Notes under the pieces: model-generated
What the model was told of the DNA's origin: nothing
Seen by the model: only the letters and a program-made list of their open reading frames with translations
Databases searched by the model: none
Translations under genes and position numbers: made by a program
DNA from: Candidatus Saccharimonadota bacterium
Lineage (GTDB): Bacteria > Patescibacteriota > Gracilibacteria > BD1-5 > UBA2023
Reading direction: 5' to 3'
Assembly (NCBI GenBank): GCA_046350815.1
Contig: JAXLZO010000001.1
Span: forward strand, 30,001 to 62,000
DNA: 32,000 bases
Shown: in pieces, positions 53 to 31,837 of the stretch
Position numbering within the stretch: position 1 is the stretch's first letter
Layout: each line of letters begins with the position of its first letter

Positions 53-336
53 GATCCTGAACTAAATTCAGGATGATAAAATACAACTCCCCCCTACTCG
101 TAAACTCATTTTTTCCTCATTGAGGGGGATCAAAGTTGAAGTTCTTTATTTCTTCCCCTCTTGAGGGGTGCCGAAGGCGGGGTGGCTGTATTTTTGCCTG
201 AGTCATTTCGAACAAAGTGAGAAATCCCTTCGAATTACCTTTCAGTGAGAATATTATATATAAGGGATCTCTCCTAATGTCGAGATGACGAATATAGAAG
301 AAAAAGTAGGTCCCCTTATCTACGCGAGGATAACAA
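53..336. repeat. Intergenic mosaic hairpin-repeat cluster A
   Basis: Modules: GATCCTGAA-n-TTCAGGATGA hairpin at 53-77. AAAATACAACTCCCCCC at 78-94. CCTCATTGAGGGGG at 113-129. TTTATTTCTTCCCCTCTTGAGGGGTGCCGAAGGCGGGGTGG at 145-185, which is an inverted copy of 15508-15549. GTCATTTCGAACAAAGTGAGAAATC at 202-226. A reversed GTCATCTCGAC..GAGATCC hairpin at 265-289. A degenerate reversed copy of the 25-mer at 311-335. The stretch 53-122 is about 85% identical by eye to 25208-25277. Confidence 0.8.
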
Positions 337-1681: not shown

Positions 1682-2767
1682 CTACATCACACCATCACGA
1701 ATCATCTGTGGGTTATTTGCATACTTGAGAGCCTCATCAAGAGTGATTTCTCAGAACTTCACTGAATCAATAAGATCATGTTCCAGCAGCTGCATTCCTT
1801 CAGTTCGTCCTGTTTGCATGACGGATGGGAGTTGATGAAGCTCATTTTCACGAATAAGATTCGCGACCGCGGCATTACGAATAAGTATCTCTTTTACCAT
1901 TTTAACACCATATTGATCTTTTTTGAGAAGGAGACGTTGACTAAATACCGCTACAAGTGCTTCAGCAAGTTGCACACGAATTTGATTCTGTTGATCACCT
2001 GGAAAAGCATCGATAATACGAGTGATAGTTTGATACGCATTTCGAGTATGGAGAGTCGAGAATACGAGATGCCCTGTTTCTGCGAGCTTGAGAGCCATTT
2101 CAATCTCATTCTTAGTGCGCATTTCTCAGAAGAGAATAACATCCGGGGTTTGTCGCATAGCACCCATCAATGCTGTCGTATAATCAGGAACATCTTGACC
2201 GATATCCTTTTGTTCTACGATAGAGAGTTTGTGAGGGTGAATATACTCAATCGGATCTTCAATAGTAATAATATGCTTGTAATATCGATTATTGATCTCA
2301 TTGATAAGAGCTGCGAGTGTTGTAGATTTACCAGATCAGGTTGGTCCCGTGACGAGCACTAATCATTGTCCCACTTTCACAATATCCTCATAAACACGAG
2401 GGAGTCCTAATCCTTGAAGCGTTGGCATATCTCCAGAGAGAAGACGCAAAATTACCATGTGTGAGCCCATTTGAAATGAGAGATTTCCACGAAATCGAGA
2501 ATTTTGAAAACTGAATGCAAAATCAAGATTTTTGAGCGTGAGAAGTTTTTGATATTGCTCTTCATTGACAAGAGATTTTGCAAAATTTTCCGCTTCTTTT
2601 TGCGTGATCTCAGTCATTCCATCTTTGATGGGCGTGATCACACCACCAAGTTTGATAGATGGAAAAGCTCCTACGGTATAGTAGAAATCTGATCATTTAT
2701 TATCGATCATTACTGAGAGAAGTGCATCGCGAAGAGGATATTCGCTCAAGATAGTTTGGAAAGACAT
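1682..2767 (-). CDS. pilT: Type IV pilus retraction ATPase PilT (361 aa)
   Basis: Stitched from track ORFs 2363..2641(-) and 1751..2122(-) plus flanks. Walker A is GPT[TGA]SGKST with TGA at 2336-2338. Other motifs are PDVILF[TGA]EMR with TGA at 2126-2128, ETGHLVFSTLHT, and the C-terminal ITLDEALKYANNP. ATG is at 2765-2767 and stop TAG at 1682-1684. Confidence 0.9.
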
Positions 2768-2778
2768 AAAAAGAAAAA

Positions 2779-4008
2779 TTAAAGATTTTTAGCTACCTTA
2801 CCGAGTTCAAAGAATGGCATCATAATAGCGAGCACAATAACACCAACCATACCACCAACAACAACAATGATAATAGGCTCTAGTGCAGACATGATATTCG
2901 CAACATACTGTTTGAGTTCTTTCTCATAAATAATACCAGTATTCTTGATGCTGTTCGATACCGCACCAGTTTCCTCACCAACATTGATCATATAAGCAAG
3001 ATCCTCCGTAAAATATTTACTCGTAAAACTAAACTCATTTTTACCGCGAGAGAGTCACATGGATTGAGAGAGCTTCATTCATGCTTCTACCTCATTCTTC
3101 ATACGAATGATATCACGCTTGAAATGAATATTTGGAACAACCTTTGCAGTAATAACCAAAGCCTCAAGCATGAGAATGCCAGAATTGAGAAGCAAGGAAA
3201 GCGATGAAATAAAGAGAATAACATTCATCTGCTTTTCCATCCAACCAAAAACTGGGATCTTGAGGGAAATGCGATGAAGCCATATCTGCCCGTAATACGT
3301 TTGTCGGAAGAAATGAAAACCAACGATCAGTGCTACAAAAAACGAAAGAAGAATGATATAGTGATTGCGCATAAAATCAGACACATCGATCATAAATTGT
3401 GTAAGTGCAGGAAGTTGCACTTTTGCTTTTGCAAATGCCCCAGTAATCTTCGGAAGAATAAACACCAACATGAAGATCACGAGCGAGAATGAAAGAAAGA
3501 TGAGAATAGCTGGATATACCATCGCACCACGAATCTTCGAAGTAATCTCAATTTGTCATCGGAGGGTCTCTTCAAGATCTGTGAGTACTCTCGGAAGAGT
3601 ACCGGTTTTCTCCCCTACCTCGATCAATGAAATAATGATAGGATCAAAATATTTGCTATAGTTCTTGAGAGACTCTGATATAGGAATACCATAATCAAGA
3701 TTCTGATGAGTAGATATGAGTATATCCTTGAGTTTTTGATTCTTGATCTGCTTTGAAGCAATTCCCATGGCTGATTTAATATCAATACCCGAAGTGAGAA
3801 AACTCGCAAGTTTTGATATAAAGCGCCATACTTCTTTTTTACTAATACCGCCTATTTGTATCTGAAAATCAATATTATTATTTTGTAGAGATTTTCCTTT
3901 TGGTTGCTCAAGTTTGCTGCGTGCATTTTTGAGCAGCTTATAAAACAGTGCTGGATCAAATGAACCATCGCTGCGATAAAACTTGTGCGAACCAAAAGGA
4001 AATTCCAT
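2779..4008 (-). CDS. pilC: Type IV pilus platform protein PilC / GspF family (409 aa)
   Basis: Three same-frame track ORFs (3556..4008, 3079..3522, 2779..2991, all -) are joined by TGA at 3556-3558 and 3079-3081. The sequence shows the duplicated T2SSF architecture: GIPISESL..FDPIIISLIEVGEKTGTL and AYMINVGEETGAV, with hydrophobic TM segments. The real stop is TAA at 2779-2781. Confidence 0.85.
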
Positions 4009-4037
4009 AAAGTAGCAAGAAAGTTACAGATAATACA

Positions 4038-6020
4038 CTAGAGAGTGGTACCATTTTTTGAAATCAGATTAATACACTCTCGGATAACAAAGTCATACTC
4101 TCATTTGTGGTAGAGCTCCAGAAGAGTTTTATATTTTTCCCTCATCTTGATCTCTTGTTTTCTCTGAAGGGCATGTTCTTCGTTTTTCACCACCTCTTTG
4201 AGAAAGAAAACAAATTTTGGATGGACAAATCCATCACGATAGTTATTGAATACAGCTTGTTTCAGTTGGGTATACTCTCACAGACGAAGAAGTTCGGTAC
4301 ATTTGGCAAGGCGGATGCGAAGCTCCTCTTTTTGCTTCTTTTCTGTTATCATCTTTGTGATTTCTTCCTGAGTTTTTCAGCGAAATTCCACTTTTTTGGC
4401 TTCACGGAGATTGATTGCATCCAATGATTGAAGAATCTCTTTGAATATGGCATCATCTCGAACGATATCACGTTTCTCATTTCGCTCGAGAAAATAGAGA
4501 GATACATCATCGAGAAACTGCTCCTGACCCATAAATTTTCCTACAAAGAGAAGAGCATCTTCAATTCGATTTTTCGATTTCACTAATTCCATAACCATTT
4601 TCTGAACACGATCAAGTCAGAAAAGTTCTCATTTTTTATTACGTGCTTCAGGGATACCATCAGTATAACCAAAAATAATATCATCTTGATGGAGTACAAG
4701 AGGCTTTTTGTGGATGGAATCAAGATTGAGAATTTTTCGAACACCGAGTGCAAGTCAACCAGGAATCACCTTCTCCACTTTTCTCATGTTCGCACGATAT
4801 ATATAGAGTGGATCATGACCTGCTCCAATATAATAAATCTCTCGCTCTGAGTACACATATTCAAAGAAGATTGCTGTAACGAACATTCATCATTTGAGTG
4901 TAGCTTTTAAGCTATTATTGAGCTCAAACACGAGCTCTTCAAATGAGTATTTTTCAAAACGAACTTTATCAAAGAAGAGATTTGAGAGAGCTGCAACAGT
5001 CAATCCTGCTTTTACCCCATGTCATGTTGCATCTCAAAAATAGAATATCGTACTATCCTTACGGTGAAAATACCCAAACGTATCACCAATGACTCCATCT
5101 TTTCCAAGTATGCGCCCCTCAAAATTAAACCCTGGAAGTGAGAATCACTCCACATCCTTGATAGTACCATGCTGGATAATATTGAGTGCTGATTCACTAT
5201 TAGGATCGATGTTTCCATCTATCAGGTTCAACGCTCAAGCCTTTCGTAGAAGATCCTCAATAGATCGTAGATTCTTCGTACGGCTAATGTAATCACGATA
5301 TTTTTCCCTTCGTTCCTGAAAGTCATGATACATTTTTCTTATGCGTTCAAAAAAACCAATTTTTTCCTTTTCTTCACTTGTTCAAAGAGAAAGTGGATTT
5401 TTTATCGCATCATCACTAAATTCCTCTTTGATCAGAGCATCTACTTTTGCATCAATAATTTGAGAACCTTGTTGAGTATTCTTATTTTTCTCAAGTGCTT
5501 TTTGTGCATATTCAACCAGTGAAAATATAAGCTTCGATTCACGAAACTCGACACTGAGACGCTGTGCATACTTTACCGCTTCAAGATATTTTTTTGCTCC
5601 CACATAATTCTTCACTACCTTCTTTCCACGACTATAAGCAGTTGCCTCTCTTTTTTTAAACTCTTTCTCGAGAAAATATTTTTTCTTGCGAGAAACTTGT
5701 TTATCAAAAGAATCAAGCCTCTCAATATTCTTATCAAGATCCTTTATGGCATTACGAGACAATTCCAGCAATTGTTTTGCTTGAGCGGAGATTTTTGGAA
5801 TATTCGAAGAAATCAGTGGTTCATTCGATGCGATCATGCTACGATGATAATCTATTGCCTGATTGATTTTTGTACGAATCTCAAGAAGAGCTTTTTCAGC
5901 ATTTGCATAATCATTTGCACGAATATATACTTCGATCCACTCAAGCGCACTATTAAAAGTCTTCACACTTTCCTGAGAAGCATTTTTTGAGCGAAACCGA
6001 TGAAGAAAAGAGAAAAACAT
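4038..6020 (-). CDS. SpoIIE/PP2C-family serine phosphatase with long helical N- and C-terminal regions (about 660 aa)
   Basis: One frame runs from ATG 6018-6020 to TAG 4038-4040, reading through about 10 in-frame TGA (e.g. 5382-5384, 4377-4379, 4278-4280, 4101-4103). The core matches RsbU/SpoIIE motifs: GDTFGYF, FYFGDATGHGVKAGL, MFVTAIFFEY, YIGAGHDPLYIYR, IIFGYTDGIPEARN. The flanking regions are K/E-rich and look like coiled coil. An alternative GTG start at 6068 would overlap the pilB 3' end. Confidence 0.75.
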
Positions 6021-6028
6021 GAAGGTGA

Positions 6029-7270
6029 TTAAATCAATTGAAGAGCTTCTGAGAGGGTAGTTTTTCACATAATTGCCTTAATGAGACCATCTTGTAGTAT
6101 CGTGAGCATACCTTGTTCACGTGCCTTACGCTCGATATCAATAGCACTCATCTTCTCGAGAATCAGGGGATGCAATTCTTCGGTGATAGTGAGCACCTCG
6201 TGAGCAGCAATGCGTTTTTGATATCACGTATTATCACACTGATCACATCAGACTTTTACAGCAAATTCAAGATCACCAACTTGCTCATCACTGATAGCCT
6301 CTAGTTGCTCTCGTATGAGCTCTTGTTTTGCGTTATCACTTATTTTTGCATATGCTACACAATTGGGACATACTCGACGAATCAATCGCTGTGAGACAAC
6401 CATTTTTAGAGCCGAAGCAACGAGGTATGGCTCAATTCCCATATTTACCAATCGTTGTACCGTAGCAGATGCAGAATTGGTATGGATAGTCGAAAAAACC
6501 ATATGTCCAGTGAGCGCCGCCTCAATTGCCAACATTGCCGTTTCTCGATCGCGAATTTCACCAACCATAATAATATCAGGATCTTGACGCATCATAGATC
6601 GAAGTCCTGCGGCAAAATCATATCCTATCTCTGGTTTGACCTGACTCTGATTCACAAAAGGCATATTGTACTCGACTGGATCTTCCAGTGTTGAAATATT
6701 ATATTCAAGCGGCTTGAACTCTTTGAGCATGGAAAAAAGCGTGGTTGTCTTTCATGATCCTGTTGGACCAGCGATGAGAATAATGCCATAATGACTTTTC
6801 ATACTCTCACGAATACGATCAAGGTTAAGATCCATGAAATCAAGTCGATCGAGTGACAGCAAAGAGGAATCCTGTCGAAGAAGACGCATTACAATCTTCT
6901 CACCATATACAACCGGTAGTACTGAGACACGAATATCCACTGTCTCTCCCATTTTTTGAGAGATATATGCAATCTTTCCATCTTGCGGACGGAGCTTTTC
7001 ATCAATTCGTAAGCCAGAAAGCACCTTGATACGAGAATTAATTTTGGTGTATTCTTCATAGTTGAGCTTATCAATATAGACAAAATCACCATTTTCACGA
7101 TAACGGACAAGTACATAGTCATGAGTGCACTCAATGTGAATATCCGATGCACCACCTTGCAAAGCAAAATCAAAGAGCTCATCAGTATAACGCACCGTAT
7201 CAGTGATATTGGTTTTGATAGCAACCGTTGCAAATTGTTGTTCATCCCGAATGTGTTGTAGTGTGATCAT
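6029..7270 (-). CDS. pilB: Type IV pilus assembly ATPase PilB / GspE family, short form (413 aa)
   Basis: Track ORFs 6752..7270(-) and 6248..6730(-) plus a tail are in one frame. Walker A is GPTGS[TGA]KTTT with TGA at 6752-6754. Other motifs are MRQDPDIIMVGEIRD, TGHMVFSTIHTN, the tetracysteine CPNC..[TGA]CDQCDNTGY, and the C-terminal G[TGA]KTTLSEALQLI. Stop is TAA at 6029-6031. Confidence 0.9.
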
Positions 7271-7364
7271 AGAGTCAAAGAGTAATATGTCCTTGGAATT
7301 CTACCATATCTTCTTAGTTTACGCAAAATGTCGCCTTGCAAAGGAAGATAATCTGTTTGCAATT

Positions 7365-7394
7365 AAAAAACCCTCTTTTTCAAGAGAGTTTTTT
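7365..7394 (-). terminator. Rho-independent (bidirectional) terminator after the pilin gene
   Basis: AAAAAA-CCCTCTT-TTTC-AAGAGAG-TTTTTT. On the minus strand this gives a 7-bp stem with one G.U pair, followed by a T-run, 19 nt downstream of the pilin stop. Confidence 0.7.
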
Positions 7395-7412
7395 ACAATA
7401 ACAATCGGATGA

Positions 7413-8015
7413 TTAATAAGTTGAATGATGACCAACATCATTATGCACGATTTCACCAGATGCAGAGTTTGCTCGGGCAATAAGTCCCTTTGCACCATTA
7501 CCACCTGTATCAGCAGTAAAATTACCCTTTACATACACTGTTTCAACATCACCATTCATTACTGTAGAAGCAACTTGAAGTGCCGAATTACTAGATGTAC
7601 TAGCATAACCAACAAGAGGAGCACTCTCTGAAGATGTAGCATCACCCATATCCGCCTGAGCAATACCTGGAATTGCTGACCATTGTGGAGCTCCAGCCTT
7701 GATAGTAATAGAAGTAGCGCCGGTATTACCAAATACTGTTTTTCCAGTACCAACTACAATCGTTCGACCAGTAGCTGAACCACTATCAATAAGCGTAGTC
7801 ATGTCAACTGCTGTTGCACCCTTGGTATTCATAGCACTTGAGAGGAGACCCATATTCTCACGAACCTTCGCGGACTTAGCATCCTTTGTATAGTTCTGAT
7901 ATGAGAGGAATCCAACTGTTGCAAGAATTGCAAGAATCGTAATTACCACGATAAGTTCTACGAGAGTAAAACCACCTTTTTGACTCTTGAGAGCCTGCAT
8001 TTGAGAGAGCTTCAT
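7413..8015 (-). CDS. pilA: Type IV major pilin (200 aa)
   Basis: The class III signal [14 protein letters not shown]|[25 protein letters not shown] is the N-methylation motif (G/FTLxE). The rest of the protein is Thr/Ser/Gly/Ala-rich. There is no in-frame TGA. Stop is TAA at 7413-7415. The start is trimmed to the ATG at 8013-8015 rather than the track start at 8105. Confidence 0.85.
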
Positions 8016-8076
8016 ACAATATAATGATAAAAAAATAAAATTGTAGAAGGTTGTAGCATTCGCTGCGTACAGAGGC

Positions 8077-8105
8077 ATTATGGCAGATAATGAAAATTGT
8101 GTCAA
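8077..8105 (-). promoter_or_regulatory. Sigma70-like promoter for the pilin gene
   Basis: On the minus strand: TTGACA (8105-8100), a 17-nt spacer, then CATAAT (8082-8077). It sits about 60 nt upstream of the pilin ATG. Confidence 0.45.
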
Positions 8106-8316
8106 AAAAAACGTTATTCTTTTTGGAAAAAGAGGAATTTATGATTGTTTTGGTAAAAAAATTATGGTTTCTTCCACTCTTGATGAATGGTGGAATCTTA
8201 AGTATTTGCGACCACAGGGAATGATAGAGTTAGTATTCTATGTTCTTCCTTTAATACACCCACACAATTATAATTTAAGCACAATCATATATGCAATGTA
8301 AATACCAAAAGAGGAA

Positions 8317-8490
8317 GATCCTGAAACAAGTTCAGGATGACAGATAATTTGTTGTCATCCTCGCGGAGGCGGGGATCTACCAATTCAGCAAAGTCTGAGA
8401 TATATTTTCGTCCATCCAGAAGATTCACGACTTATCGCATCTATGCGATTTGCTGCATTCCCTATGGTCACCTGTCTGCACGGGAATGAC
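8317..8490. repeat. Intergenic mosaic hairpin-repeat cluster B
   Basis: Modules: GATCCTGAAACAAGTTCAGGATGACA at 8317-8342. The perfect 25-mer GTCATCCTCGCGGAGGCGGGGATCT at 8354-8378. ATCGCATCTATGCGATTTGCTG at 8434-8455. ATTCCC..CGGGAATGACA at 8457-8490. GGATGACA (8335-8342) and TGTCATCC (8353-8360) are reverse complements, so adjacent modules can also pair with each other. Confidence 0.85.
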
Positions 8491-8533
8491 AGATTTTTAT
8501 GATTTGACTTGAAAATCGAAAATTACCCGATCT

Positions 8534-9277
8534 TTATTCTTTCAAAAGAGCTTCAAGAGCCTTGTAAGCTCTCGAGAAAGGAATAAATGATGGGGAGGTT
8601 GCAATGGTAATAAGTCCAGCCCTATCAAACAACGACCGTACAAGAGGTATGCTATGCGACCATGGAATATAAGAAAGATCTTCACTCCAATAATCCAGAT
8701 CTATATTGAGAATATATCCAGATCGCCATTTTGAAATATCTCGAATGCACTCCAAATCATCTTCTCATTCCACTCGAAGAAAATCACCAATATAACCATG
8801 ATCGAGAAGCGGCCGAATATAATTTCCAACATTACAATACCTATGCGCGTATTCCCACCAATCAAGAGAGAATTGGCTGAAAAAGTCCTTAGGAATATTT
8901 TTATTCTCCCAAAGATCCGAATGTTCATCGATATGAATACATCAAACTCATTTTGAAAGCAATCCTTGATCAAATGCAATTCACCAAGCATGTGCTACCG
9001 CATTATGATTATCGCAGAGAACAACGGGGACTCATCCCATACAATCAATAAGACTCTTTTGAAGTGCAAAAAAAGAATCTGTTTGACTAAGACAAAAACC
9101 AATCTCCGAGGACTCACGTACATTTAAAAGTGAATCACGCTGATATTTAGGAATAAAAAGTTCTCTTGGCGGGTCAATAAGTTGACTATTGCCAGAATAA
9201 CTCATAACATATTTTCCACCACGATCTTCATTTAAGAGAGATTGAATGAAGACTTCAACCATCTGACCGTCTATCAT
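8534..9277 (-). CDS. Hypothetical protein, possibly UPF0489/arginase-fold like (247 aa)
   Basis: Track ORFs 9032..9277(-) and 8534..8755(-) are joined in one frame through TGA at 9032, 8981, 8948, 8942 and 8765. Motifs are VVLCDNHNAVAHAW and CIHIDEHSDLW (HxDxHxD-like). Stop is TAA at 8534-8536. The family assignment comes from motif memory only. Confidence 0.5.
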
Positions 9278-9810
9278 ACCTGAGGATCAAGATGTGCAAG
9301 TATGGTCGATACTACCTCATCAGGAGCAATCAAGGTTGTATCAACTGCTAAGTCAAACACATGTTCTTGAGGTGGAAATGGAATATGCGGATAGATTTGT
9401 GCATATCTCTCTGCATTTGCGTTATTTCTCGAATTTGTCTTTTGTGTTGCTTCTTCGACTGATAAGCCCTCACGTGAAGCGATACGATCCATGAAAACCG
9501 CATCATCTCATGTAAGTACAATCTTGTAACTATCAGGAATCCAATGCCATGCAAGACGGCTCTCAAACACAAACCCTTCAGTATTTTGACCATAGGATAC
9601 AATCCGTTCATCAATCTCATGATCCACATGAGGATGATCTTTTATATACTCACCAAACTCATAAATATCCATTCCATGATCGTGAGCACATTCACGCATC
9701 ATAGCACCAGAGGATTTGAACTCATATCCAAGCTTCTCAGCAAGAAGCTTTGCAGTAGTCGATTTACCACTTCCCTCAGGTCAGTAGATTGTTATTTTAG
9801 ATTTATTCAT
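9271..9810 (-). CDS. cmk: Cytidylate kinase, short (archaeal-like) type (179 aa)
   Basis: MNKSKITIY[TGA]PEGSGKSTTAKLLAEKLGYEFKSSG contains a P-loop. The rest reads ..VDHEIDERIV..FVFESRLAWHWIP..IASREGLSVEEA..ERYAQIY..FDLAVDTT. Track ORFs 9508..9702 and 9274..9492 are joined by a TGA. The gene ends GTA TGA TAG, with the true stop TAG at 9271-9273. Confidence 0.75.
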
Positions 9811-10195
9811 AAGAAGATATCTGAGAAATTGTTGCCTCAAGAAAGAGAAGTACAAAACCAAAAAGAAGTGCGGTCTGCCATATAAGCACTCAGTAATAGT
9901 CAAAAATTCGTATCATACATGCGTAAATAACGAGAAAAAACGCATGACGAAGAGAGGTGTAAATCAAGCTCGCATTGATCGCTCCACGATAGTAGAGTTT
10001 CTTCAGAAAATAAATCACAATCGTCAAATAACTCGTAAGAGCAAGAACGAGCGATACAACCATAAGTGTGAGCATCAATGGAAGATTCCTTTCAGGGGAA
10101 GTATAGAAAAGAAGAATGAGAACCGATAAACTGCTCGATGCACCTATAAGTGTCAAAAGTCCAAGAGTCGTGAGGCGTGGGTGAGATCAAAACAT
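9803..10195 (-). CDS. Small hypothetical integral membrane protein (about 130 aa)
   Basis: Track ORF 9890..10156(-) extends through TGA at 9890-9892 to TAA at 9803-9805, and upstream to ATG at 10193-10195. There are three to four hydrophobic segments. The 3' end overlaps the cmk start by 8 nt. Confidence 0.5.
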
Positions 10196-10328
10196 GATAT
10201 GGATGGTATATCTCCAGAGAAATATGTCAAGAAAAGAAGATTTTTTACGAAAATATGCAAGAAAAGAGTCAACTTTTTGCATTTTTTGAAAATATATCGT
10301 AGTATAGAAAAAAATATCTCTCTTGAGT

Positions 10329-11189
10329 ATGACATCACATTCTATTATTCATCGTTCTTCTCTCCCTTCAAAGCCTTCAAAAAGTAGTATTTTGCTCGCT
10401 ACGATATTACTTTGAAGTATCTTACTGACAGGTTGTGGAAAGACAATCAGTCCACAAGACAGCGAAAAACAAGCAACAGAGTCAAACGATCGCCAATTCA
10501 CAAAAAAGGGTGTTCCATATTTTGCCGACGTATGAGTTGCTATCGGTCTTAATGCTTGATACAAAAGCAAAAAAGACAATGACGTAGTAGTTAATCTCGC
10601 GGGCCAGGTCATCCCCATTCAGCAAGCTCTCGAAGAAAAAGATCTCAAACATCGAAAGATCATTGCATCCAATATTAATGAAATAGCGGCCTACCGCGAT
10701 ATACTCAAGATTGATATAAAAGAGAAGCTTGATAGCTCTCCGGATCGCCAAGCTACTCTCAAAGCTCATATGGAGCTCCTCAATAAACACTATAATCTCG
10801 CACAAGACAACCTCAAAGGACTCGATATTTCTCGAAAGGAAATCACAACAGCACTCGGTGAAATTACAACCAGAGTTAATAGTGCTCGAACTCAAGTGGA
10901 CAACTCTTTTGCAAAGCTTGATCCATCTGATGTTGATGAGTATGTCGGTGAGTATATCAGTGCAAAGGAAGACGAACGATATGCTCAGACCTATCTTGTA
11001 CTTACCGACCGATTGAGAGAACGGTATGCAAAACTGCAATCATACAATTCACTCCTCATTCAAACTATAGCGAACAATCGTGAAGCACTCATCGCCTGAG
11101 TAAGTGTAGTAATGCCAGCTCAAGGAAATGATTTTATGGATGATCTCTGACTTATAAAGACAGAAGCACAAAAAAAGACCGGGCAGTAG
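10329..11189 (+). CDS. Hypothetical lipoprotein with a coiled-coil-like body (286 aa)
   Basis: The frame of track ORF 10770..11099(+) extends upstream to ATG 10329 through TGA at 10413, 10533 and 10557, and downstream through TGA 11097 and 11148 to TAG at 11187-11189. The lipobox is SILLATILLGSILLTG|C. It is followed by the terminator at 11199-11232. Confidence 0.65.
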
Positions 11190-11198
11190 ACAAGATTC

Positions 11199-11232
11199 AA
11201 AAAATATTCTCCAATATTGGAGAATATTTTTT
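11199..11232 (+). terminator. Rho-independent bidirectional terminator
   Basis: AAAAAATATTCTCCAATATTGGAGAATATTTTTT is a perfect palindromic stem flanked by an A-run and a T-run, 10 nt after the lipoprotein stop. Confidence 0.8.
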
Positions 11233-11295
11233 GAATCAAAATTGATGATGGGTGGAAAAGATATAAACCTCTTATGGTCGAAATAATAAAAATAT

Positions 11296-11476
11296 GTCAT
11301 CCTCGCGGAGGCGGGGATCTACTTCTAATATCATTTTTGAATATACCATCTATTCATGAGATTCCCGTCTATATAGGAATGGCAAGAGAGTAGATATACA
11401 GAATGCAACCGACCTAAGCCCCTTTCTCAGATGGATAAAATCCGAATATGTCATCCTAAACTTAATTCAGCATCTT
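11296..11476. repeat. Intergenic mosaic hairpin-repeat cluster C
   Basis: Modules: the perfect 25-mer GTCATCCTCGCGGAGGCGGGGATCT at 11296-11320. GATTCCCGTCTATATAGGAATGGCA at 11360-11384. A degenerate GTCATCCTAAACTTAATTCAGCATC at 11449-11473. Confidence 0.8.
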
Positions 11477-11519
11477 CCTTTTTCTTATTACATACTATTT
11501 TGACTCATATCAGAGCAAA

Positions 11520-12383
11520 CTAACTTCGAGATTTCAGCCATTCATGAAATGCTGGGCCAATATCCGCTCGAGCAAGAGCAAAGTCAACAACTGCTTGCAA
11601 ATATCCAATTTTTGATCCAGCATCATAGCGTACTCATTGCGTCGTGATAGCAGTTAACTCCTCTTGTGCGGATAGTGCACGAATAAAGCCATCAGCAAGT
11701 CGCTTTTCACCACCAGCACTCACCCCAGAGAGCTCGATATATCGCCACATTGCCGGAGTGATAATATACTTTCCTATCACGGCTTGTCGTGAAGTTGTTT
11801 CGTCCGGACGAGGCTTTTCAAGAAATTGAGTTACACGATGCAGATGGTGAGTATTGTCAATATCAACAATACCATAAGAACTTACCGCTTCATCACTCAC
11901 TGTCTGAGTCAAAAGAACAGATGACCCATATTGTTCATATGCATCGACGAGTTCTTGAGCTCAAGTGCGCTCACCCATAATCAGGTCATCTCAGAACAAT
12001 ACAAGACACGGTTCATCACCTACAAAAGGACGAGCACAGAGAAGAGCATCCCCGTCTCATGTTGCTTCCGGCTGTCGTACATAAGCAATCTTTACACCGC
12101 AAGAAACCGATCGAACACTCTCAAGTTCTTTGAGTTTTCCTTTGCGTTCGAGTACTCATTCGAGCTCAAGAGAACGATCAAAATGATCAACAATCATATC
12201 CTTACCCCGAGAGAGCACAATTACGATTTCTTCAATACCAGCACTCACAGCCTCTTCGACAAGGTATTGAATTACTGGTTTATCAACCAATGTAATCATC
12301 TCCTTTGGCACTGCTTTGCTTGCTGGAAGCATACGCGTGCCATATCCAGCTGCTGCAATTATACATTTTTTGACGGCCTTCAT
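11520..12383 (-). CDS. galU: UTP--glucose-1-phosphate uridylyltransferase (287 aa)
   Basis: [45 protein letters not shown] is the canonical GalU N-terminus. YVRQPEAT[TGA]DGDAL and VLF[TGA]DDLI place TGA on conserved Gly. Track ORFs 12156..12383 and 11634..11912 are in the same frame. Stop is TAG at 11520-11522. Confidence 0.9.
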
Positions 12384-12443
12384 GAGAGAAAGGAGTGAAG
12401 AATAAATTATAGAGATTGTATTTCTCTGGAAAAAAAATCAATC

Positions 12444-13118
12444 TTATCTCTCATCAGAAATTTCCCGTGATCGAAGAGACTGTAATCGCCAAGTAGCAAT
12501 AGAATTGTGATTGCCAGAAAGAAGAACATCAGGCACCCTCATATTACGCCATATTTCTGGACGAGTATAATGAGGATATTCCATCTTCCCATCGAATGAT
12601 TCACTGAAGGATTCTTCCTCATGTGAAGCATCCTTGATTACTCATGGAATGAGGCGAGCTATCGAATCGATAAGTACAAGAGCCGCTGTCTCTCCTCACG
12701 TTAGGATATAATCCCCTATCGAGACACGACGCATATGATAATGATCTATGACACGTTCATCAATCCCCTCATAGTGGCCACAAATAATAATGATGTCTTT
12801 CTTATTCGTTGCAATATTTTGAGCGGAAGATTGAACCCAGCGCTCACCACCGGGAGACATGACAAATATCTCAGGTTTTTCAGGACTCTTATCGAGAATG
12901 TCATCTATTGCGAGTGCAATCGGCTCACACTGAAGAAGGGTGCCATTGCCACCACCATACACACGATCATCGACGCGGCGAGTTGAGCGCACACTATAAT
13001 CAGAGAGTTTGACAAAAACGGGAGTGATACTCCCGTTTTTGACGCTTCGCCCCAATATCGATGTTTCGAGAGCACTTGTGAGCGTCTCTGGAAATAGTCC
13101 AACGATAAAAATCTTCAT
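12444..13118 (-). CDS. trmD: tRNA (guanine37-N1)-methyltransferase (224 aa)
   Basis: Motifs: [11 protein letters not shown].., [33 protein letters not shown][TGA]GE with TGA at 12696-12698 on the conserved Gly of the SPOUT knot motif, and YPHYTRP. Stop is TAA at 12444-12446. Confidence 0.9.
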
Positions 13119-14119
13119 TATTTCGAAACGCTTACCATTTTAATCGAGAACACAAGACTCTTCCCTGCAAGATCTTGCTTGTTCGGTATTCGCAAAACCA
13201 CCTCATCTCCATCTGATCGAACATCTGCAATCTCCACTTCATCACCAATTTTTAAGCCAAAGCGTGCAAAAAGAGCAAGAGATTTTTCATTGAGTTTTTT
13301 CTTCGCACCATTTTTAATTTCATTATCTGCGAAAATTGCAGCATCTGGCATTTTTTCAGATACCATGATAACCGATCCACTCATAGAAATGATTTCATAA
13401 TCAATACCATCCTTTGAGGCTTTTGTGCCGACTGCTATAGGTTTGTCGTAGAATGGAAGCTTGGTCGTATCAAGAACATAGGTTACCTTATCACCGTCAA
13501 TAGCTGTAACCTTCATAAGAAGATTTGGATCGACGGAACTTGGATACACGCTTCCAACCTGGATTTTCGTTGTATCGACTGGCTCTCCAAGCGACTGAGT
13601 AATAGGTTTCTTCTCCGTATAAATCTTACTATCCATAGGACGAACAATATTTCCCTCAAGCATCTCACGAACCATAGGAATTTCAATAAATCCTTCTCCG
13701 TACGCATCCTTCGGAGAGAGTGTAAATTCTCGAGTTTGTCCTGCCTGCATGCCCATCATTGCCTGTGCAAAACCTGGTATAGTACCTTGGCCAACTACTG
13801 CATCAAATGCAAGACGATTCTCTCGTGTACCCTGAAGAGATGTACCACACGTATCATAGAGTGCATACTCTACCTTAACCTGTGAGCCTGTTTTTGAAAC
13901 AGGTCCACTACCAGTACCAGTTGGTGCGCCAAGATCTGTAGGCTTTATTGGACATGATTGTGCAGTTGCTTTGCTTTCTTCTGCTCCAGATTGAGTTGAA
14001 GTATTTTGAGGAGATGATTTTTGGTCGAGAGAAGCATTTTTATTCATTCATGGAAGACTACAACCAGTAACAAAAGCAGAGATGAAAATAAGAGAAATGA
14101 GAGAATGCATGGCTTTCAT
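13118..14119 (-). CDS. FKBP-type peptidyl-prolyl isomerase-like lipoprotein (333 aa)
   Basis: Track ORF 13118..14047(-) extends upstream through TGA 14048-14050 to ATG 14117-14119, giving the lipoprotein signal MKAMHSLISLIFISAFVTG|C. The FKBP-like core is VKVEYALYD...AVVGQGTIPGFAQAMMGMQAGQTREFTLSPKDAYGE. Stop is TAA at 13118-13120, a 1-nt overlap with the trmD start. Confidence 0.65.
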
Positions 14120-14179
14120 AAAGATCGAGGAAAAAATAAATCGCCCCTATGCTATGAAAAAAAGTCATGAGAGCAAGTC

Positions 14180-15187
14180 CTACTGACTCAGGTTACCTTG
14201 ACATGAACTTACGATCCTGATATATACATAATCTTCCATGGAACCAACCGAACCACCCGTGATCATCTGTCTCTGAATATCATTCACGCACATCATGAGT
14301 CTTGCGAGACTTTTAACAGTGTGTTTTCGCTGTATGAGTTTATCGAGAGGATATCTCTTCACACCAAAAATCCCACCGTCAAGATCTCTTCTTGAACCAT
14401 GTGCAAGCAGATCCAGTGCTGCAATATATTTACGAAGTTGGGTTCGGAGGCTGGGTAACACAGACCACATCATACCCATATCACAGAGTCCATACCAAAG
14501 TCTTGCAATTTCTTGAGCATTTCATCAAAGTATCGCATCAAGCATCTCATAGACTTTGAGATCAAGAGATGGCTTGTATGTTCGACTCACTTCTTCAATC
14601 GTCAACGATCATGCATCATCATGATAGCCAAGATGATAAAAATTGAGAGCCTGCTCCGTCACCTGAGATGGAAGAGACATCAAATAATCTAATACAGATC
14701 AAGAGATATTGGGAAGTAGTAATTTTGCCTTTGCCCGAAGCTCAACACCCGAGAGAACATCAAATGACTCGATATAAGCAGATTTTTCTATCCACTTAAA
14801 AAACGATGATTCGATAGAACTACTATCCCCTACTACTATAATCTTTGCATGGTTAGGTATTTGTGTAATATCATATTTAATAGCTGGTGTTTTTGATCGG
14901 CCTGTGCTGGATTCATCATCAACACCCTCCTCATCAGACATATCTTTTTTGGGAGATTTTACCGCTAGAGAATAGCGTGCGATAATAAGTTTACAATCAG
15001 AAAAAAGAGGCATGGCTCTTGCTTCAGCAAGAATATCTTCCCAAGTTGGCGCATCAAGCGATACTACATTGTGCTCACCATAATCTCATGAAAAATCCTG
15101 GATAACAGCTTCGAGACGAGCAAAAAGATTATCCGTATGAATCCCAGTATAGAGTGTGAGCGGCGAAGAAAGAGGAACGGTATTCAT
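14180..15187 (-). CDS. holA: DNA polymerase III delta subunit-like (335 aa)
   Basis: Track ORFs 15086..15376, 14699..15013 and 14180..14479 (all -) share one frame and are joined by TGA. The layout is HolA-like: PLTLYTG..., LDAPTWEDILAEARAMPLFSDCKLII, LKVYEMLDAIL[TGA][TGA]NAQEIARLW. Stop is TAG at 14180-14182. I chose the start MNTVPL at 15185-15187. The ATG at 15226 is an alternative. The track start at 15376 would read into repeat cluster D. Confidence 0.65.
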
Positions 15188-15302
15188 AATAGAAAGTATA
15201 TGAAAATTCGAATGTTTGTCATACATAATGAGACAAGATAGGAGAAAGAGAGAGCAACCCACCAGTCCACTCAATGACGGAGAACAATACAAACAGTTGT
15301 AG

Positions 15303-15549
15303 GTTCCCATCTTGCACGGGAATGACACAAATTTTATGTCATCCTCGCGGAGGCGGGGATCTACAACTATCGACACAGCAAGTTCTTATCATTGAAATGG
15401 GTTGAATCTGATATTTTTTTGATTTGAAAGCTCTATTGAGAATGCAAAAATAGTAGATTCCCGTCTACACGGGAATGACAAATAATTTAAAATCCGCATA
15501 CGTCACTCCACCCCGGCTTCGCCACCCCTCAAAGAGGGGAAGAAATAAA
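15303..15549. repeat. Intergenic mosaic hairpin-repeat cluster D
   Basis: Modules: GTTCCCATCTTGCACGGGAATGACA at 15303-15327. The perfect 25-mer at 15338-15362. GATTCCCGTCTACACGGGAATGACA at 15456-15480 (form ATTCCC-N8-GGGAAT). CCACCCCGGCTTCGCCACCCCTCAAAGAGGGGAAGAAATAAA at 15508-15549, an inverted copy of 145-185. Confidence 0.85.
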
Positions 15550-15550
15550 T

Positions 15551-15584
15551 AAAATCCCTACTCATAAAATAAGTAGGGATTTTA
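15551..15584 (-). terminator. Rho-independent terminator after the giant surface-protein gene
   Basis: AAAATCCCTACT-CATAAAATA-AGTAGGGATTTT is a 9-bp perfect stem with flanking A and T runs, 15 nt downstream of the TAG at 15599-15601. Confidence 0.75.
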
Positions 15585-15598
15585 AGAATCATTAGATA

Positions 15599-18500
15599 CT
15601 ATTGCACCGAAGTAACTTTTGTCAGATTGTACTGCTTGAGGAAGTCACTCACAAGTGGTGGTGGATCTGAGAGTACTCGGGAAGAATAATTCACCAGAAT
15701 TCCTGTCACGATACCACTTGAAGCACTACTACCACGAGCATAGGTACGAGCTGCTATCAGATCTGCAGCATTACCATAGAGACTACCATTGATGATCAGT
15801 TGAGATCATGATGGTTGTCACTTAATATGGTTCGCAATATAAACGCCATCCAACTGTGTCACATTTGTTCAAATTTCAATTTCATCTGCAATAAATGCAA
15901 CCGAATTATTACCAGCTGTTATGTTGCCATTAATGGTCAATTTCCCATTAATCACATAGGTAACCTTTTGAGGGATTATCACTGTATTTAAAGTTACATC
16001 CTTATTTTCAGCACGTACCATAGATGTTCCGGTAGGTAGACCAGAGAATAATCATGGCTGATGAGCTCAGGTAATATTTTTCAAATCAAAATTTGAATTA
16101 GATGTATTCGTATTTTTAGCATTACCAGTATTGAAGTTTGCTGCCTTGAGTTGCTCAAGAAAATCCTTAGCAACTGTATCAATATCAACTGTTTGATTCG
16201 GATTTGCAAAGTATCCGGCACCACCTGCATTGTTTGCAATGATTGGTCGAGTTACACGAATATTGATAGCACCAGGTAAGCGCATATCGTTATCTATATC
16301 ATCACTAGGTTGTTGCAAGGTAACATAAAAATCAAGAAATGGTTTATTTGGGTAATTGACTGTTCGATAAGCTGCATTTTTCAGATTGTTCGTTTGTCCA
16401 TAATCAGCCTTTCAGGCATCATTCCAACGATTTGGATCAGATGGCCAATTAACTATAGGCAATCATTTATGTTGATTCAAACGAGCTGAATTATTTTCAA
16501 AGTCACTGAAATTCATAAGTGGCTCACAAAGTTCCCACGCACTACCATTCCACCGAGAATTAAATTGATTCGGCTGATCTCATGGATTTGCATTTCCTAT
16601 ACAACTTTGATTCAACGTTTGGCTCCATGCATCATTCGTAATGAAATCTCATTGACTCTTGAGAACTATTTTAGATCCAGTAGGTGGAGCAAAGATATAT
16701 CCAGGAGATCGGAGATTGAGTTTATCTTTCTGTCGAAACACTGGAGTATTCTGCCCAATGATCATACTATATGTCCCAGATCAAGTAATATTCTGCCCAT
16801 TAAACAAAGTAAACTCTCTGGATGGACTTTCTGCAGGATTGATAGTAATAGATGGCAAAGTACAGCTCATCGGTTGAGTACTAATATCAAGTCCTATCTT
16901 ACATTCTCCAGGTGTTTTAAATCTATCAACGTAAACACCATTACATACATCGTATGTGCTTGCTGTTATAGTTTGAGATGGTGATCATGGTTTACCACAA
17001 TATCACCACTTGCTTGGATCAGAAGCATAGACAGAAGGATCACACTCTTCTCCAGCATCAAGGCGACCATTTCAACATACTAGTGAAGGATCTCCGCCAG
17101 TCTTACATTGATTAAATGCTCCTGGACGTCCACAGGCACCCCAGTTTACTGCAGATCACATATCACACGTTTCACCAACCTCAAGTGTACCATTTCCACA
17201 ATATGGATTTGATATGGTATTTGTGATCTTACATGTTGTGTCATTCGTATCGAGCGATGATGCGTAGTTTGAATATTCAGCATTATAGTTCCGTCCTACA
17301 GCGATTGGAAAAACTGGATAGTTTGAAACAATACATTTCACATTTTGAGAACCTGGACGATCTGGATTGACTGGAAAGCTCGCGGGATTGCCATGAGAGA
17401 AATCACCAATATAATCAATCACATTGTCACCATCACGATCCACTCAAAATGATCGAGCTTGAGCATTTCCCTGACAAGCAAATGTTGTGTTGTTAATTTT
17501 TGCTACAGACATACATTGAAGCTGGCTTCCTCCTCAACAGATTCCTGTACACCCAGTCTTCAATACCGCACTATTACAATTCGTCGTATCTCCACCAGCA
17601 AGAGTCTTTGCAGCAGATTCATTTGCATTCTCCACACACGCTGTATTTGTCACTGTTGTATTTGCACCAGCAGTTACACGCATAGGGATAAGAATCTCTG
17701 GCAACACATTTATACCAACAGAAGGTTGACCATTGAGATAGCAAGAGAGGATTGATCAACTACTTGCCGAACAATTCCATCCATTCGTCGTGATAGCTGC
17801 TGATGTACGCTCTACTCCAGCAGGGAAAGTATCAGATACAAAAGTTGTACCATTGATAGCAGCCGGGCCATTGTTAGTAACGACAATACGATAATTGAAG
17901 GTAGCTCCGTTTGCGAGATCGATCGCTGTCTCTGCATCATCACTATTGATGTACTTACGAATCGAGAGATCAAATCCATCATTCACTTTGATACAAGCAG
18001 GATCACTCTGTGTGTCAGCTGCACGAGCAGGACATCCAGTATCAGGAGGCAAAGGTGGAATGGTCGTTGTACAAGCAGGATTGTCTATGAGAGATCCACC
18101 ACTGAGAATCTTCTTCGCACAGACATAGGCAATATTCTGATGAAATGATCCCGATGCAGCAGATGCCCGAAGCTTCGCAATGATCGTAAAATTATACGTA
18201 CTACCGGACGCGAGGACATTATCTGTCTGATGCATCACTACTGAGTGAGTATGACCACTGTGTGTGGTAGTTGTCGATCCTGTCGACCATCCAGCTGGAG
18301 CTGATGCAAATCGCACAAATTCCACATATTCTGGAAGTACGTCTTTCACGATCGCACCATTCACCGATCCACTCGAAACCTTGACTTGGTAGAGATAGTT
18401 GAACTCTGTATCACGAGTAACGTTCACCGCACTCGACTCATTCTGAGAGTCACCGGCAGGCATAGTTCCAGCATATTTTTTGATAGAGAGAGTGCCTTGA

Positions 18501-25170: not shown

Positions 25171-25518
25171 GTAAAACGAGTCAGAGATTTGTATTTGAGG
25201 CGAGGAAGATCCTGAATCAAGTTCAGGATGACAAAATACAACTCTCACTGCTCGTAAACTCGTTTTTTCGACTCATTGCATCTATGTAATTCGCTGGACT
25301 ACTGAAGTTTACCCCATCATTGAAGGGTCTATGAGAAAATTTTTTTGTTCCTATCAAACCTCAATCAGTCCAAGAAAGTGTAACAACACAATAGTTCGGA
25401 GAATCAAAGTATGTCATCCTCGCGGAGGCGGGGATCTTGTATTCTTGTATTTGTCTTTATGTCTTTATGTATTTTGTTCCCCCTCATTGAGGGGGTTAGG
25501 GGGAGTTGTATTTTTTTT
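25171..25518. repeat. Intergenic mosaic hairpin-repeat cluster E
   Basis: Modules: GATCCTGAATCAAGTTCAGGATGACA at 25208-25233. AAAATACAACTC..CTCGTAAACTCGTTTTTTC at 25233-25270, homologous to 78-116. ATTGCATCTATGTAATTCGCTG at 25275-25296. The perfect 25-mer at 25413-25437. CCCCCTCATTGAGGGGG at 25479-25495. GGGGGAGTTGTATTTT at 25499-25514. Confidence 0.85.
25233..25514. mobile_element. Possible MITE-like unit bounded by 12-bp inverted repeats
   Basis: AAAATACAACTC (25233-25244) and GAGTTGTATTTT (25503-25514) are perfect inverted repeats enclosing about 280 bp of hairpin modules. A shorter analogous pair occurs in cluster A: 78-94 against the imperfect GGCTGTATTTTT at about 184-195. There is no coding capacity, and no target-site duplication was verified. 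Confidence 0.3.
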
Positions 25519-31833: not shown

Positions 31834-31837
31834 GCAC

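What the first reader, a model, noticed from the sequence alone, without database searches (positions are those of the whole stretch)
8354..8378. A 25-nt hairpin GTCATCCTCGCGGAGGCGGGGATCT is perfectly conserved four times, always on the + strand
Identical copies lie at 8354-8378, 11296-11320, 15338-15362 and 25413-25437. A degenerate reversed copy lies at 311-335. All are intergenic. Each copy folds as AUCCUCGC-GGAG-GCGGGGAU with one G.U pair. Perfect identity across about 17 kb of otherwise unrelated sequence argues for active spread, gene conversion or strong selection. The fixed orientation is notable because the flanking genes are mostly on the minus strand. The sequence could be a protein- or RNA-recognition site, a transcription or replication signal, or the target or end of a mobile system.
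Basis: seen in the sequence. Interest (0 to 1): 0.65.

Follow-up and report, generated by a model that had tools for sequence, protein, structure and literature searches.

The report
Hairpin repeats recognised by Ssn nuclease
The four identical 25-base hairpins belong to a repeat family described in 2025 (NTS/SRM, the single-stranded-DNA recognition sites of the small GIY-YIG nuclease Ssn), here found in a Gracilibacteria-like bacterium that reads UGA as glycine; this is a new host for a known system, not a new kind of element.

Summary
GTCATCCTCGCGGAGGCGGGGATCT occurs four times, all exact, all on the + strand and all intergenic; shuffles give none. It folds as ssDNA into an 8-bp stem with a 4-nt loop.

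It has the anatomy of an Ssn-related motif (SRM/NTS; Nat Commun 2025, PMC11893778): 5' GTC, a palindrome, then a 3' C. It differs from the published SRM search pattern at one loop base. It sits in mosaics with inverted sibling hairpins, and one sibling matches both the SRM and the Neisseria dRS3 patterns exactly.

The window encodes no nuclease or transposase. In two relatives (L142, L173), exact 25-mers bracket a 95-aa single-domain GIY-YIG gene. That gene carries the SsnA catalytic residues Y6, Y17 and E64 and an in-frame UGA. This is the published SRM-ssn-SRM layout. No RAYT homologue was found.

The 20-nt core recurs with the same flanks in many phyla. Orientation is not fixed: 34 independent sites split 18 to 8 by strand composition. 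The copies are old at their sites and vary mainly in the loop or by compensatory change, which points to constraint rather than recent spread.

Verdict: a new member of a known kind, of modest interest. Cleavage by Ssn and any biological role are inferred, not shown.

The parts
8353..8380 (+). A-type SRM hairpin copy 1 (TGTCATCCTCGCGGAGGCGGGGATCTAC; the exact 25-mer is 8354-8378). It lies about 250 nt upstream of the pilin promoter-like site at 8105-8077(-).
   Evidence: exact ortholog in L174
11295..11322 (+). A-type SRM hairpin copy 2, in a convergent intergenic region
   Evidence: The ortholog in L175 has 2 substitutions. The copy is absent from L174 as part of a 154-bp indel.
15337..15364 (+). 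A-type SRM hairpin copy 3
   Evidence: exact ortholog in L174
25412..25439 (+). A-type SRM hairpin copy 4, in a divergent intergenic region
   Evidence: orthologous copy in 9 related contigs
306..335 (-). Degenerate A-like SRM (TGTTATCCTCGCGTAGATAAGGGGACCTAC)
   Evidence: SRM pattern, 1 mismatch
15453..15480 (-). B-type SRM (TGTCATTCCCGTGTAGACGGGAATCTAC). It matches the published SRM pattern exactly and contains an exact dRS3 pattern (15457-15476). It is the convergent partner of copy 3, and the same element flanks ssn in L142.
15299..15327 (-). Diverged B-type SRM, head-to-head with copy 3 across a 9-nt spacer (11 nt between the GTCAT heads)
   Evidence: family D4
8464..8491 (-). Diverged B-type SRM with an expanded loop, convergent partner of copy 1
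   Evidence: D4
11358..11383 (-). Degenerate B-type SRM (ATTCCCGTCTATATAGGAATGGC on the + strand), convergent partner of copy 2
   Evidence: (D13)
8318..8342 (-). C-type SRM (GTCATCCTGAACTTGTTTCAGGATC), head-to-head with copy 1; terminator-like on the minus strand
   Evidence: D3
25208..25232 (-). C-type SRM (GTCATCCTGAACTTGATTCAGGATC)
   Evidence: D3
53..77 (-). C-type SRM-like copy whose head is ATCAT instead of GTCAT, with the same flank as the copy at 25208
   Evidence: D3
11450..11475 (+). Degenerate C-type SRM (GTCATCCTAAACTTAATTCAGCATCT)
11304..11457 (.). 154-bp segment that holds most of copy 2 plus its degenerate B partner. It is present here and absent from the 95-98% identical contig L174. 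In the window it is bounded by the 13-nt direct repeat AATATGTCATCCT (11291-11303 and 11445-11457), which forms the heads of two co-oriented SRMs.

Best explanation
The 25-mer is an Ssn-related motif (SRM), a close variant of the Neisseria Transformation Sequence (NTS) that contains dRS3. It is a strand-specific DNA hairpin with a 5' GTC, an 8-bp stem, a 4-nt loop and a 3' C. When its strand is single-stranded, it would be bound by a small single-domain GIY-YIG endonuclease of the Ssn family encoded elsewhere in the genome.

[quoted passage not shown] It does not act on dsDNA, RNA or the complementary strand.

The copies sit in intergenic mosaics with inverted sibling hairpins (types B and C), much like Neisseria NIMEs or enterobacterial BIMEs. 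Recombination between hairpin heads adds and removes modules.

Shown here:
- the sequence anatomy and the fold;
- membership of a pan-bacterial repeat family;
- the ssn gene bracketed by the exact 25-mer in relatives;
- structure-preserving variation among copies;
- persistence of copies at orthologous sites;
- absence of a RAYT homologue.

Inferred:
- that this lineage's Ssn actually binds and cuts type A (rather than, or as well as, type B);
- that the exact identity of the copies reflects selection for recognition;
- any role in handling ssDNA, for example during natural transformation.
For: Anatomy.
- A = T-GTC-ATCCTCGC-GGAG-GCGGGGAT-C-TAC, against the NTS C-GTC-ATTCCCGC-GMAV-GCGGGAAT-C-YRG.
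- A matches the published SRM pattern at every position except one loop base. [quoted passage not shown] A keeps GTC upstream and a C after the palindrome.
- Sibling 15453-15480(-) matches the SRM pattern exactly and matches dRS3.
- SRM matches at up to 1 mismatch: 10 observed against 1.69 expected, with a maximum of 5 in 100 shuffles.

The nuclease.
- L142 and L173 carry A(+)..B(-)..ssn(+)..B'(-)..A(+), with exact 25-mers on both sides.
- The ORF is 95 aa and hits only GIY-YIG-type Pfam families (GIY-YIG at E = 2e-15, plus a weak overlapping T5orf172 hit). Y6, Y17 and E64 are invariant, the same residues mutated in SsnA.
- The family is very large, with a typical length of 94 aa.
- The gene contains an in-frame TGA, as do the window's genes.
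- L173 comes from SRR26348420. Runs of the same series (SRR26348419, 22 and 23) hold an exact window protein.

Other evidence.
- The 20-nt core has GTC..C flanks in 72 of 112 matches across many phyla, 43 of them with an inverted partner. Three of the loci have an Ssn homologue nearby.
- Among 27 variants of A, changes fall mostly in the loop (positions 13 and 15), at the wobble (position 8) and at the compensatory pair 6/21. Of the 28 sequence types (A plus its variants), 23 keep all 8 pairs, and GTC and C24 are almost invariant.
- The + strand hairpin is more stable than its complement.
- No RAYT homologue was found, and no transposase or recombinase domain in the window's genes.
Against: - No ssn gene lies in the window. 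The source genome beyond the window could not be read, so the presence of ssn in this exact strain is inferred from relatives and from a sister sample.
- A fails the strict published SRM regular expression by one loop base.
- Both A and B flank ssn, so which one is the cognate substrate is unknown.
- Assignment of the protein to cd10448 and direct similarity to N. meningitidis SsnA could not be tested. Neither CDD nor the SsnA sequence was available.
- Most loci were retrieved by searching for the exact motif, which inflates its apparent conservation. The motif-independent orthologs are only L174 and L175.
- No biochemical or transcript data exist for this lineage.
Confidence: 0.8

Rival explanations
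1. REP/REPIN elements mobilised by a RAYT (an IS200/IS605-like Y1 transposase). On this view the hairpins are REPs whose inverted doublets (REPINs) are copied by a domesticated transposase, as Bertels and Rainey propose for the Neisseria ATTCCCGCGCAGGCGGGAATC repeat.
For: - Convergent A/B doublets are present. The stretch 15332-15481 can fold into one long imperfect hairpin of -20.1 kcal/mol.
- The Neisseria sibling repeat is treated as a REPIN with a Group 2 RAYT in bioRxiv 10.1101/2021.07.10.451892.
- Copies follow a master-sequence-plus-mutants distribution: 76 exact copies, then 16, 16 and 10 with 1, 2 and 3 mismatches.
Against: - jackhmmer with E. coli RayT finds no homologue in the window or in any of the 175 loci searched, whereas Ssn homologues turn up in 5 of the loci held and again in L173.
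- The gene actually bracketed by exact copies is the GIY-YIG ssn.
- The two arms of each doublet belong to different subfamilies.
- The 5' tetranucleotide is GTCA, not the GTAG typical of REPs (the GTAG rule is from my own knowledge, not from a tool result).
Confidence: 0.07
2. An RNA-level element: a terminator, an mRNA-stabilising 3' hairpin or a small RNA acting in transcripts of the flanking genes.
For: - The sequence is a stable hairpin in intergenic DNA.
- The partner elements B (15476-15457) and C (8338-8318) are followed by T-rich tails on the transcribed minus strand and score as terminator-like.
Against: - A is not followed by a T-run on either strand and was not called terminator-like.
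- Neighbouring genes are mostly on the minus strand, where the transcript would carry the weaker complement with a C.A mismatch.
- Copy 1 lies upstream of the pilin promoter-like site, and copy 4 lies in a divergent region with no upstream gene.
- No Rfam family matches.
- The conserved unpaired GTC and 3' C fit protein recognition of DNA, and SsnA does not bind RNA.
Confidence: 0.05
3. A target or attachment site for a site-specific recombinase (as dRS3 is for the Neisseria filamentous-phage IS110-type recombinase), or an operator for some other DNA-binding regulator, with Ssn only incidentally nearby.
For: - dRS3 is a documented phage-recombinase target (cited in PMC11893778).
- Modules are gained and lost next to the hairpins. 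An ssn cassette and a DUF559-like gene alternate at one locus between relatives.
Against: - No recombinase, integrase or transposase domain was found in the window's genes or in the precomputed Pfam calls of orthologous contigs.
- The one indel examined in detail is bounded by a 13-nt direct repeat formed by two hairpin heads, which ordinary homologous or slipped recombination explains.
- The four neighbouring gene sets share no function that would suggest a common regulon.
Confidence: 0.05

Closest known systems
NTS / SRM hairpin repeats with the Ssn (SsnA) GIY-YIG ssDNA endonuclease (Nat Commun 2025, PMC11893778)
   Same: - The layout GTC + palindrome + C, with orientation set by the non-palindromic flanks.
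- An 8-bp stem and a 4-nt loop.
- Many intergenic copies.
- An SRM-ssn-SRM arrangement around a single-domain GIY-YIG gene of about 94 aa with Y6, Y17 and E64.
- Canonical NTS-like copies (GTCATTCCCGCGCAGGCGGGAATCT) alongside type A in the same lineage.
   Different: - The stem differs from the NTS at two pairs (C-G for T-A, T.G for C-G), and the loop is GGAG, which falls one base outside the published SRM pattern.
[quoted passage not shown]
- The ssn gene itself is recoded.
- Two subfamilies (A co-oriented with ssn, B inverted) flank it.
- No biochemistry exists for this pair.
Neisseria dRS3 repeats and NIMEs (neisserial intergenic mosaic elements)
   Same: - Intergenic mosaics of short modules bounded by hairpin repeats.
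- One window element (15457-15476) is an exact ATTCCC-N8-GGGAAT.
- A cluster lies next to a type IV pilin gene.
- Modules are present or absent between close relatives.
   Different: - Type A itself does not fit ATTCCC-N8-GGGAAT.
- The phylum and genetic code differ.
- No DUS-like uptake sequence was examined.
REP / BIME / REPIN elements with RAYT transposases
   Same: - Short extragenic palindromes, often in inverted doublets.
- They are acted on as ssDNA hairpins by a small nuclease-type protein whose gene they flank.
   Different: - The associated protein here is a GIY-YIG nuclease, not an HUH Y1 transposase.
- No RAYT homologue was found.
- The head is GTCA rather than GTAG.

Membership tests
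SRM/NTS (Ssn-related motif) repeats | Matches the published degenerate pattern HGTCWYN(0-2)YYVSBRHN(0-5)WNVSBRGN(0-2)RNCYNB | tested here: inconclusive
   The four focal copies match with one substitution (second loop base is G where the pattern has H). Sibling 15453-15480(-) matches exactly. The paper reports that loop identity is not needed for cleavage.
SRM/NTS (Ssn-related motif) repeats | Orientation-giving flanks: GTC immediately 5' of the palindrome and C immediately 3' | tested here: met
   All four copies read GTC-ATCCTCGCGGAGGCGGGGAT-C. These positions are almost invariant among 27 variants and are present in 72 of 112 cross-phylum core matches.
SRM/NTS (Ssn-related motif) repeats | Forms a hairpin as single-stranded DNA | tested here: met
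   8-bp stem and 4-nt loop, -6.3 kcal/mol, z = -3.1. Structure-preserving and compensatory variation among copies.
SRM/NTS (Ssn-related motif) repeats | Spatial association with an ssn gene (SRM-ssn-SRM) | tested here: met
   Met in relatives, not in the window itself. Exact 25-mers lie on both sides of the GIY-YIG gene in L142 and L173. The window has no ssn.
SRM/NTS (Ssn-related motif) repeats | Enrichment over a shuffled genome | tested here: met
   10 matches at up to 1 mismatch against a mean of 1.69 and a maximum of 5 in 100 shuffles. For the 25-mer, 4 observed against 0.
SRM/NTS (Ssn-related motif) repeats | Bound and cut by the cognate Ssn only as ssDNA of the correct strand | not testable with these tools
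   Needs EMSA and nuclease assays.
Ssn nuclease family (for the associated protein in L142/L173) | Small single-domain GIY-YIG protein (about 94 aa) with catalytic Y6, Y17 and E64 | tested here: met
   95 aa. Pfam GIY-YIG over residues 2-75 at E = 2e-15; the only other hit is a weak overlapping T5orf172 match. Y6, Y17 and E64 are invariant in the alignment. The mutated residues are listed.
Ssn nuclease family (for the associated protein in L142/L173) | Assignment to CDD cd10448, or E < 1e-10 against N. meningitidis SsnA | not tested
   Neither CDD nor the SsnA sequence was available, and the paper's supplements are not held.
REP/REPIN-RAYT | A RAYT (Y1 transposase) gene flanked by the repeats | tested here: not met
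   No hit to E. coli RayT by jackhmmer (E <= 0.01) in the window or in the 175 loci searched. A whole genome was not available.
REP/REPIN-RAYT | Inverted doublets of the same repeat forming a long hairpin | tested here: inconclusive
   Convergent A/B doublets occur at 3 of 4 sites and can pair imperfectly, but the arms belong to different subfamilies.
Neisseria dRS3 | ATTCCC-N8-GGGAAT | tested here: not met
   The focal 25-mer does not match. Only the sibling at 15457-15476 matches exactly, and 11361-11380 matches with 1 mismatch.
Intrinsic terminator | GC-rich hairpin followed by a T/U tract | tested here: not met
   None of the three A copies within the scanned stretch 7900-15700 is among the terminator-like sites on either strand. 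Copy 4 was not scanned, but the sequence after it shows no T-run.
CRISPR array | Regularly spaced repeats separated by unique spacers | tested here: not met
   Copies lie 2.9-10 kb apart. The tandem array in L133 has identical 10-nt spacers.

The most novel reading that the evidence does not exclude
SRM-ssn-SRM and the A/B hairpin doublets may form a GIY-YIG-driven mobile system that moves through ssDNA, with Ssn acting as its 'transposase' and the doublets as non-autonomous passengers. Alternatively or in addition, in this UGA-recoded episymbiont-type lineage the Ssn/SRM pair may gate which incoming single-stranded DNA survives uptake. That would link the hairpin cluster beside the type IV pilin gene to natural transformation, as reported for Neisseria.
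Probability: 0.15. Interest if true: 0.65.

Novelty: new member of a known kind. Interest (0 to 1): 0.3.

Why it matters
- It extends the Ssn/SRM system, characterised biochemically only in Neisseria species and Wolbachia, to a UGA=Gly Gracilibacteria-like lineage.
- It shows that an almost identical 20-nt core recurs with the same flanks across many phyla.
- It supplies a natural enzyme-site pair with an altered stem (one T.G wobble). That pair could widen the set of site-specific ssDNA nucleases.
- For annotation, these hairpins create spurious start codons and junk ORFs (…DPRLREDD…, …SSSRRRGS…). Recognising them prevents false gene calls.
- The biological role remains open. No function in this lineage was demonstrated here.

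Tried and rejected
- Phage origin. Under table 11 the window looked like many small ORFs. There was no megablast hit to phage records, and the fragmentation is due to UGA=Gly.
- tRNA, tmRNA or a known RNA family: none found.
- Extending the source contig from a window protein: only short Logan contigs of 6.6 kb or less were found, so the source genome's own ssn could not be read.
About 40 of its 112 matches lack the GTC..C flanks; most of these lie in GC-rich genomes and look like chance coding matches (ILAEAGI).
- The paper's supplements, wanted for the SsnA sequence, are not held.
- PDB sequence search with the Ssn candidate: no hit. NCBIfam gave only a sub-threshold group I intron endonuclease hit.
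- GC-skew orientation test: 18 against 8 site groups, not decisive, and a second group of contigs shows the opposite tendency.
- A badly spaced TGTCAT…TCTAC pattern search was uninformative.

Full report
**1. Observation**

The pattern search finds exactly four matches to GTCATCCTCGCGGAGGCGGGGATCT at up to 3 mismatches. All are exact and all are on the + strand: 8354, 11296, 15338 and 25413. None appeared in 100 shuffles. There are no near-exact copies in the window, only much more diverged relatives.

As ssDNA the + strand folds into ATCCTCGC/GGAG/GCGGGGAT: 8 pairs including one T.G, -6.3 kcal/mol, z = -3.1. The complement is weaker at -4.5 kcal/mol because the wobble becomes a C.A mismatch.

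**2. Genome context**

Under table 11 the genes look shattered. Treating TGA as a sense codon raises the total length of ORFs of at least 100 aa (all six frames, overlapping ORFs included) from 5,917 to 22,287 residues. TGA falls on invariant glycines: GPTGSgKT in the PilB-like ATPase, TGPTgSGKS in the PilT-like ATPase and LTgGE in TrmD. This is genetic code 25, which from established knowledge marks Gracilibacteria and Absconditabacteria. Among the TrmD homologues that carry a name, 'Candidatus Gracilibacteria' is the most frequent.

With these gene calls all four copies are intergenic.
- Copy 1 lies about 250 nt upstream of a strong promoter-like site for a type IV pilin gene.
- Copy 2 lies between convergent genes.
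- Copy 3 lies between tandem minus-strand genes.
- Copy 4 lies in a divergent region.

ORFs that seem to start inside the repeat are artefacts of its CAT/ATG. Relatives carry frame-breaking indels there.

**3. The copies are parts of mosaics**

Each copy sits among related hairpins.
- B-type, on the minus strand: GTCATTCCCGTG-NNNN-CGGGAAT at 15453-15480, 15299-15327, 8464-8491 and 11358-11383.
- C-type: GTCATCCTGAAC-TTGW-TTCAGGATC at 8318-8342(-), 25208-25232(-) and 11450-11475(+, degenerate), plus a copy at 53-77(-) whose head is ATCAT.
- A degenerate A-like copy at 306-335(-).

A and B usually converge, with 3' ends facing across 35-88 nt. A also lies head-to-head with a B or C element 9-10 nt away (11 nt between the GTCAT heads).

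So 'always + strand' holds only for the exact subfamily in this window.

**4. Identification**

A scan of GTDB representative genomes with the 20-nt core returned more than 111 loci from many phyla. In 72 of 112 matches the flanks are again GTC…C, and 43 of those have an inverted partner within 150 nt.

A full-text search for the sibling sequence led to PMC11893778. That paper makes these points.
- The Neisseria Transformation Sequence is CGTCATTCCCGCGMAVGCGGGAATCYRG, and it contains dRS3.
- Its generalisation is the Ssn-related motif (SRM).
- These are hairpins bound and cut, only as ssDNA of the right strand, by SsnA, a 94-aa single-domain GIY-YIG nuclease with catalytic residues Y6, Y17 and E64.
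- The C after the palindrome is the base most crucial for binding.
- The three bases before the palindrome most affect cleavage.
- The loop is dispensable.
- The cut falls a few nt upstream.
- ssn genes are typically flanked by SRMs.

Type A has exactly this anatomy. It fits the published SRM pattern except at one loop base. Sibling 15453-15480 fits exactly and is also an exact dRS3. SRM matches at up to 1 mismatch number 10 against 1.69 expected.

**5. The nuclease**

No Ssn homologue is encoded in the window (jackhmmer). The window's genes carry no transposase or recombinase domain.

The exact 25-mer occurs in 58 metagenome loci. Several of them match parts of the window at 75-93% identity.

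In L142, and in L173 from a sister sample, a 95-aa ORF is bracketed as A(+)..B(-)..ssn(+)..B'(-)..A(+), with exact 25-mers on both sides. L173 comes from SRR26348420; runs SRR26348419, 22 and 23 of the same series hold an exact window protein.
- The ORF hits Pfam GIY-YIG at E = 2e-15; the only other hit is a weak overlapping T5orf172 match.
- Y6, Y17 and E64 are invariant in the alignment.
- It has an in-frame TGA.
- It belongs to a very large family typically 94 aa long.

A related contig, L141, lacks the cassette at the same locus and carries a DUF559-like gene instead.

**6. Age, variation and orientation**

Two contigs were retrieved through TrmD and are therefore independent of the motif.
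- L174 (95-98% identical) keeps exact A at the orthologs of copies 1 and 3. It lacks a 154-bp segment holding copy 2 and its B partner. In the window that segment is bounded by the 13-nt direct repeat AATATGTCATCCT, which forms the heads of two co-oriented hairpins.
- L175 (about 77-83% identical) has copy 2 with two substitutions. It has no A at the ortholog of copy 1, where a dRS3-like palindrome sits instead.

Copy 4 is present in nine relatives, while neighbouring modules come and go. That set was found by searching for the motif, so its conservation is overstated.

Among 27 variants of A, changes concentrate in the loop, at the wobble position and at a compensatory pair. GTC and the 3' C hardly change.

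The copies are therefore old and constrained rather than recently spread.

The 81 exact copies collapse to 34 sites. In the 26 with enough flanking sequence to score, the motif strand is C-rich in 18 and G-rich in 8, and orientation relative to neighbouring genes is mixed. Orientation is not fixed.

**7. Rivals**

- RAYT/REPIN: no RAYT homologue in the window or in 175 loci.
- Terminator or RNA element: no T-tract after A, and A was not called terminator-like, although the B and C partners are. No Rfam hit.
- Recombinase target: no such gene was seen, and the one indel examined is explained by recombination between repeats.

**8. Verdict**

This is a new member of the known SRM/NTS-Ssn kind, in a new host with an alternative genetic code. 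Cleavage by the lineage's Ssn, the choice between A and B as substrate, and any role in handling ssDNA or in transformation are inferences by analogy and remain untested.

Noticed in passing
whole window, e.g. 6029-7270(-), 1682-2767(-), 12444-13118(-): TGA is a sense codon and falls on conserved glycines (GPTGSgKT, TGPTgSGKS, LTgGE). This is genetic code 25, so table-11 ORF lists are misleading for this window.
   Followed up: yes
1682-8105(-): A type IV pilus gene cluster: PilT-like and PilB-like ATPases and a pilin with a G|FTLVE-type signal (read from the translations), plus T2SSF (PilC-type), T2SSE, N_methyl and SpoIIE Pfam domains on the orthologous genes of L174/L175. A hairpin mosaic lies directly upstream of the pilin promoter. 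From my own recollection, the RS3/dRS3 repeats of Neisseria were first described beside pilin genes. This may be coincidence.
   Followed up: partly
15528-15545, 25300-25320, 25479-25496; also L141, L159, L163: A second repeat family sits next to the SRMs. It consists of CCCC(C)TCAWWGAGGGG hairpins, often with a module of about 45-50 nt (…CAGCAGTCCAGCGA…GACTGAGTCGG). The module is present or absent, and occurs in either orientation, among close relatives.
   Followed up: partly
25563-25625: A cluster of CTATCATYA-like direct repeats at the point where gene orientation switches from minus to plus, conserved in L136. GC skew does not flip there, so an origin of replication is not indicated. It may be a regulatory site.
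   Followed up: no
L141 (reverse strand, about 5650-6350) compared with L142 and L173: Downstream of an orthologous methyltransferase gene, relatives carry either the SRM-ssn-SRM cassette or a gene I judged DUF559/Vsr-like from its translation (not scanned against Pfam), flanked by the CCCCCTC…GAGGGGG modules. Small nuclease cassettes appear to alternate at one hotspot.
   Followed up: partly
L133 2426-2542; L159 8582-8640 and 9271-9365: Tandem arrays of co-oriented SRM hairpins with a 34-36 nt period. L133 has identical 10-nt spacers and runs to the contig end, so it is not CRISPR-like and may be an assembly effect.
   Followed up: partly
19526-19637 and 19826-19937: A 112-nt direct repeat, 95% identical and 300 nt apart, inside the 1730-aa ORF (15599-20791, minus strand). 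It corresponds to an internal protein repeat. This ORF and the 1029-aa ORF at 21031-24120 have no Pfam hit.
   Followed up: no
11194-11237 and 31795-31834: Perfect palindromes with arms of 22 and 20 nt, with flanking A/T runs, at gene ends. They are probably bidirectional terminators.
   Followed up: no
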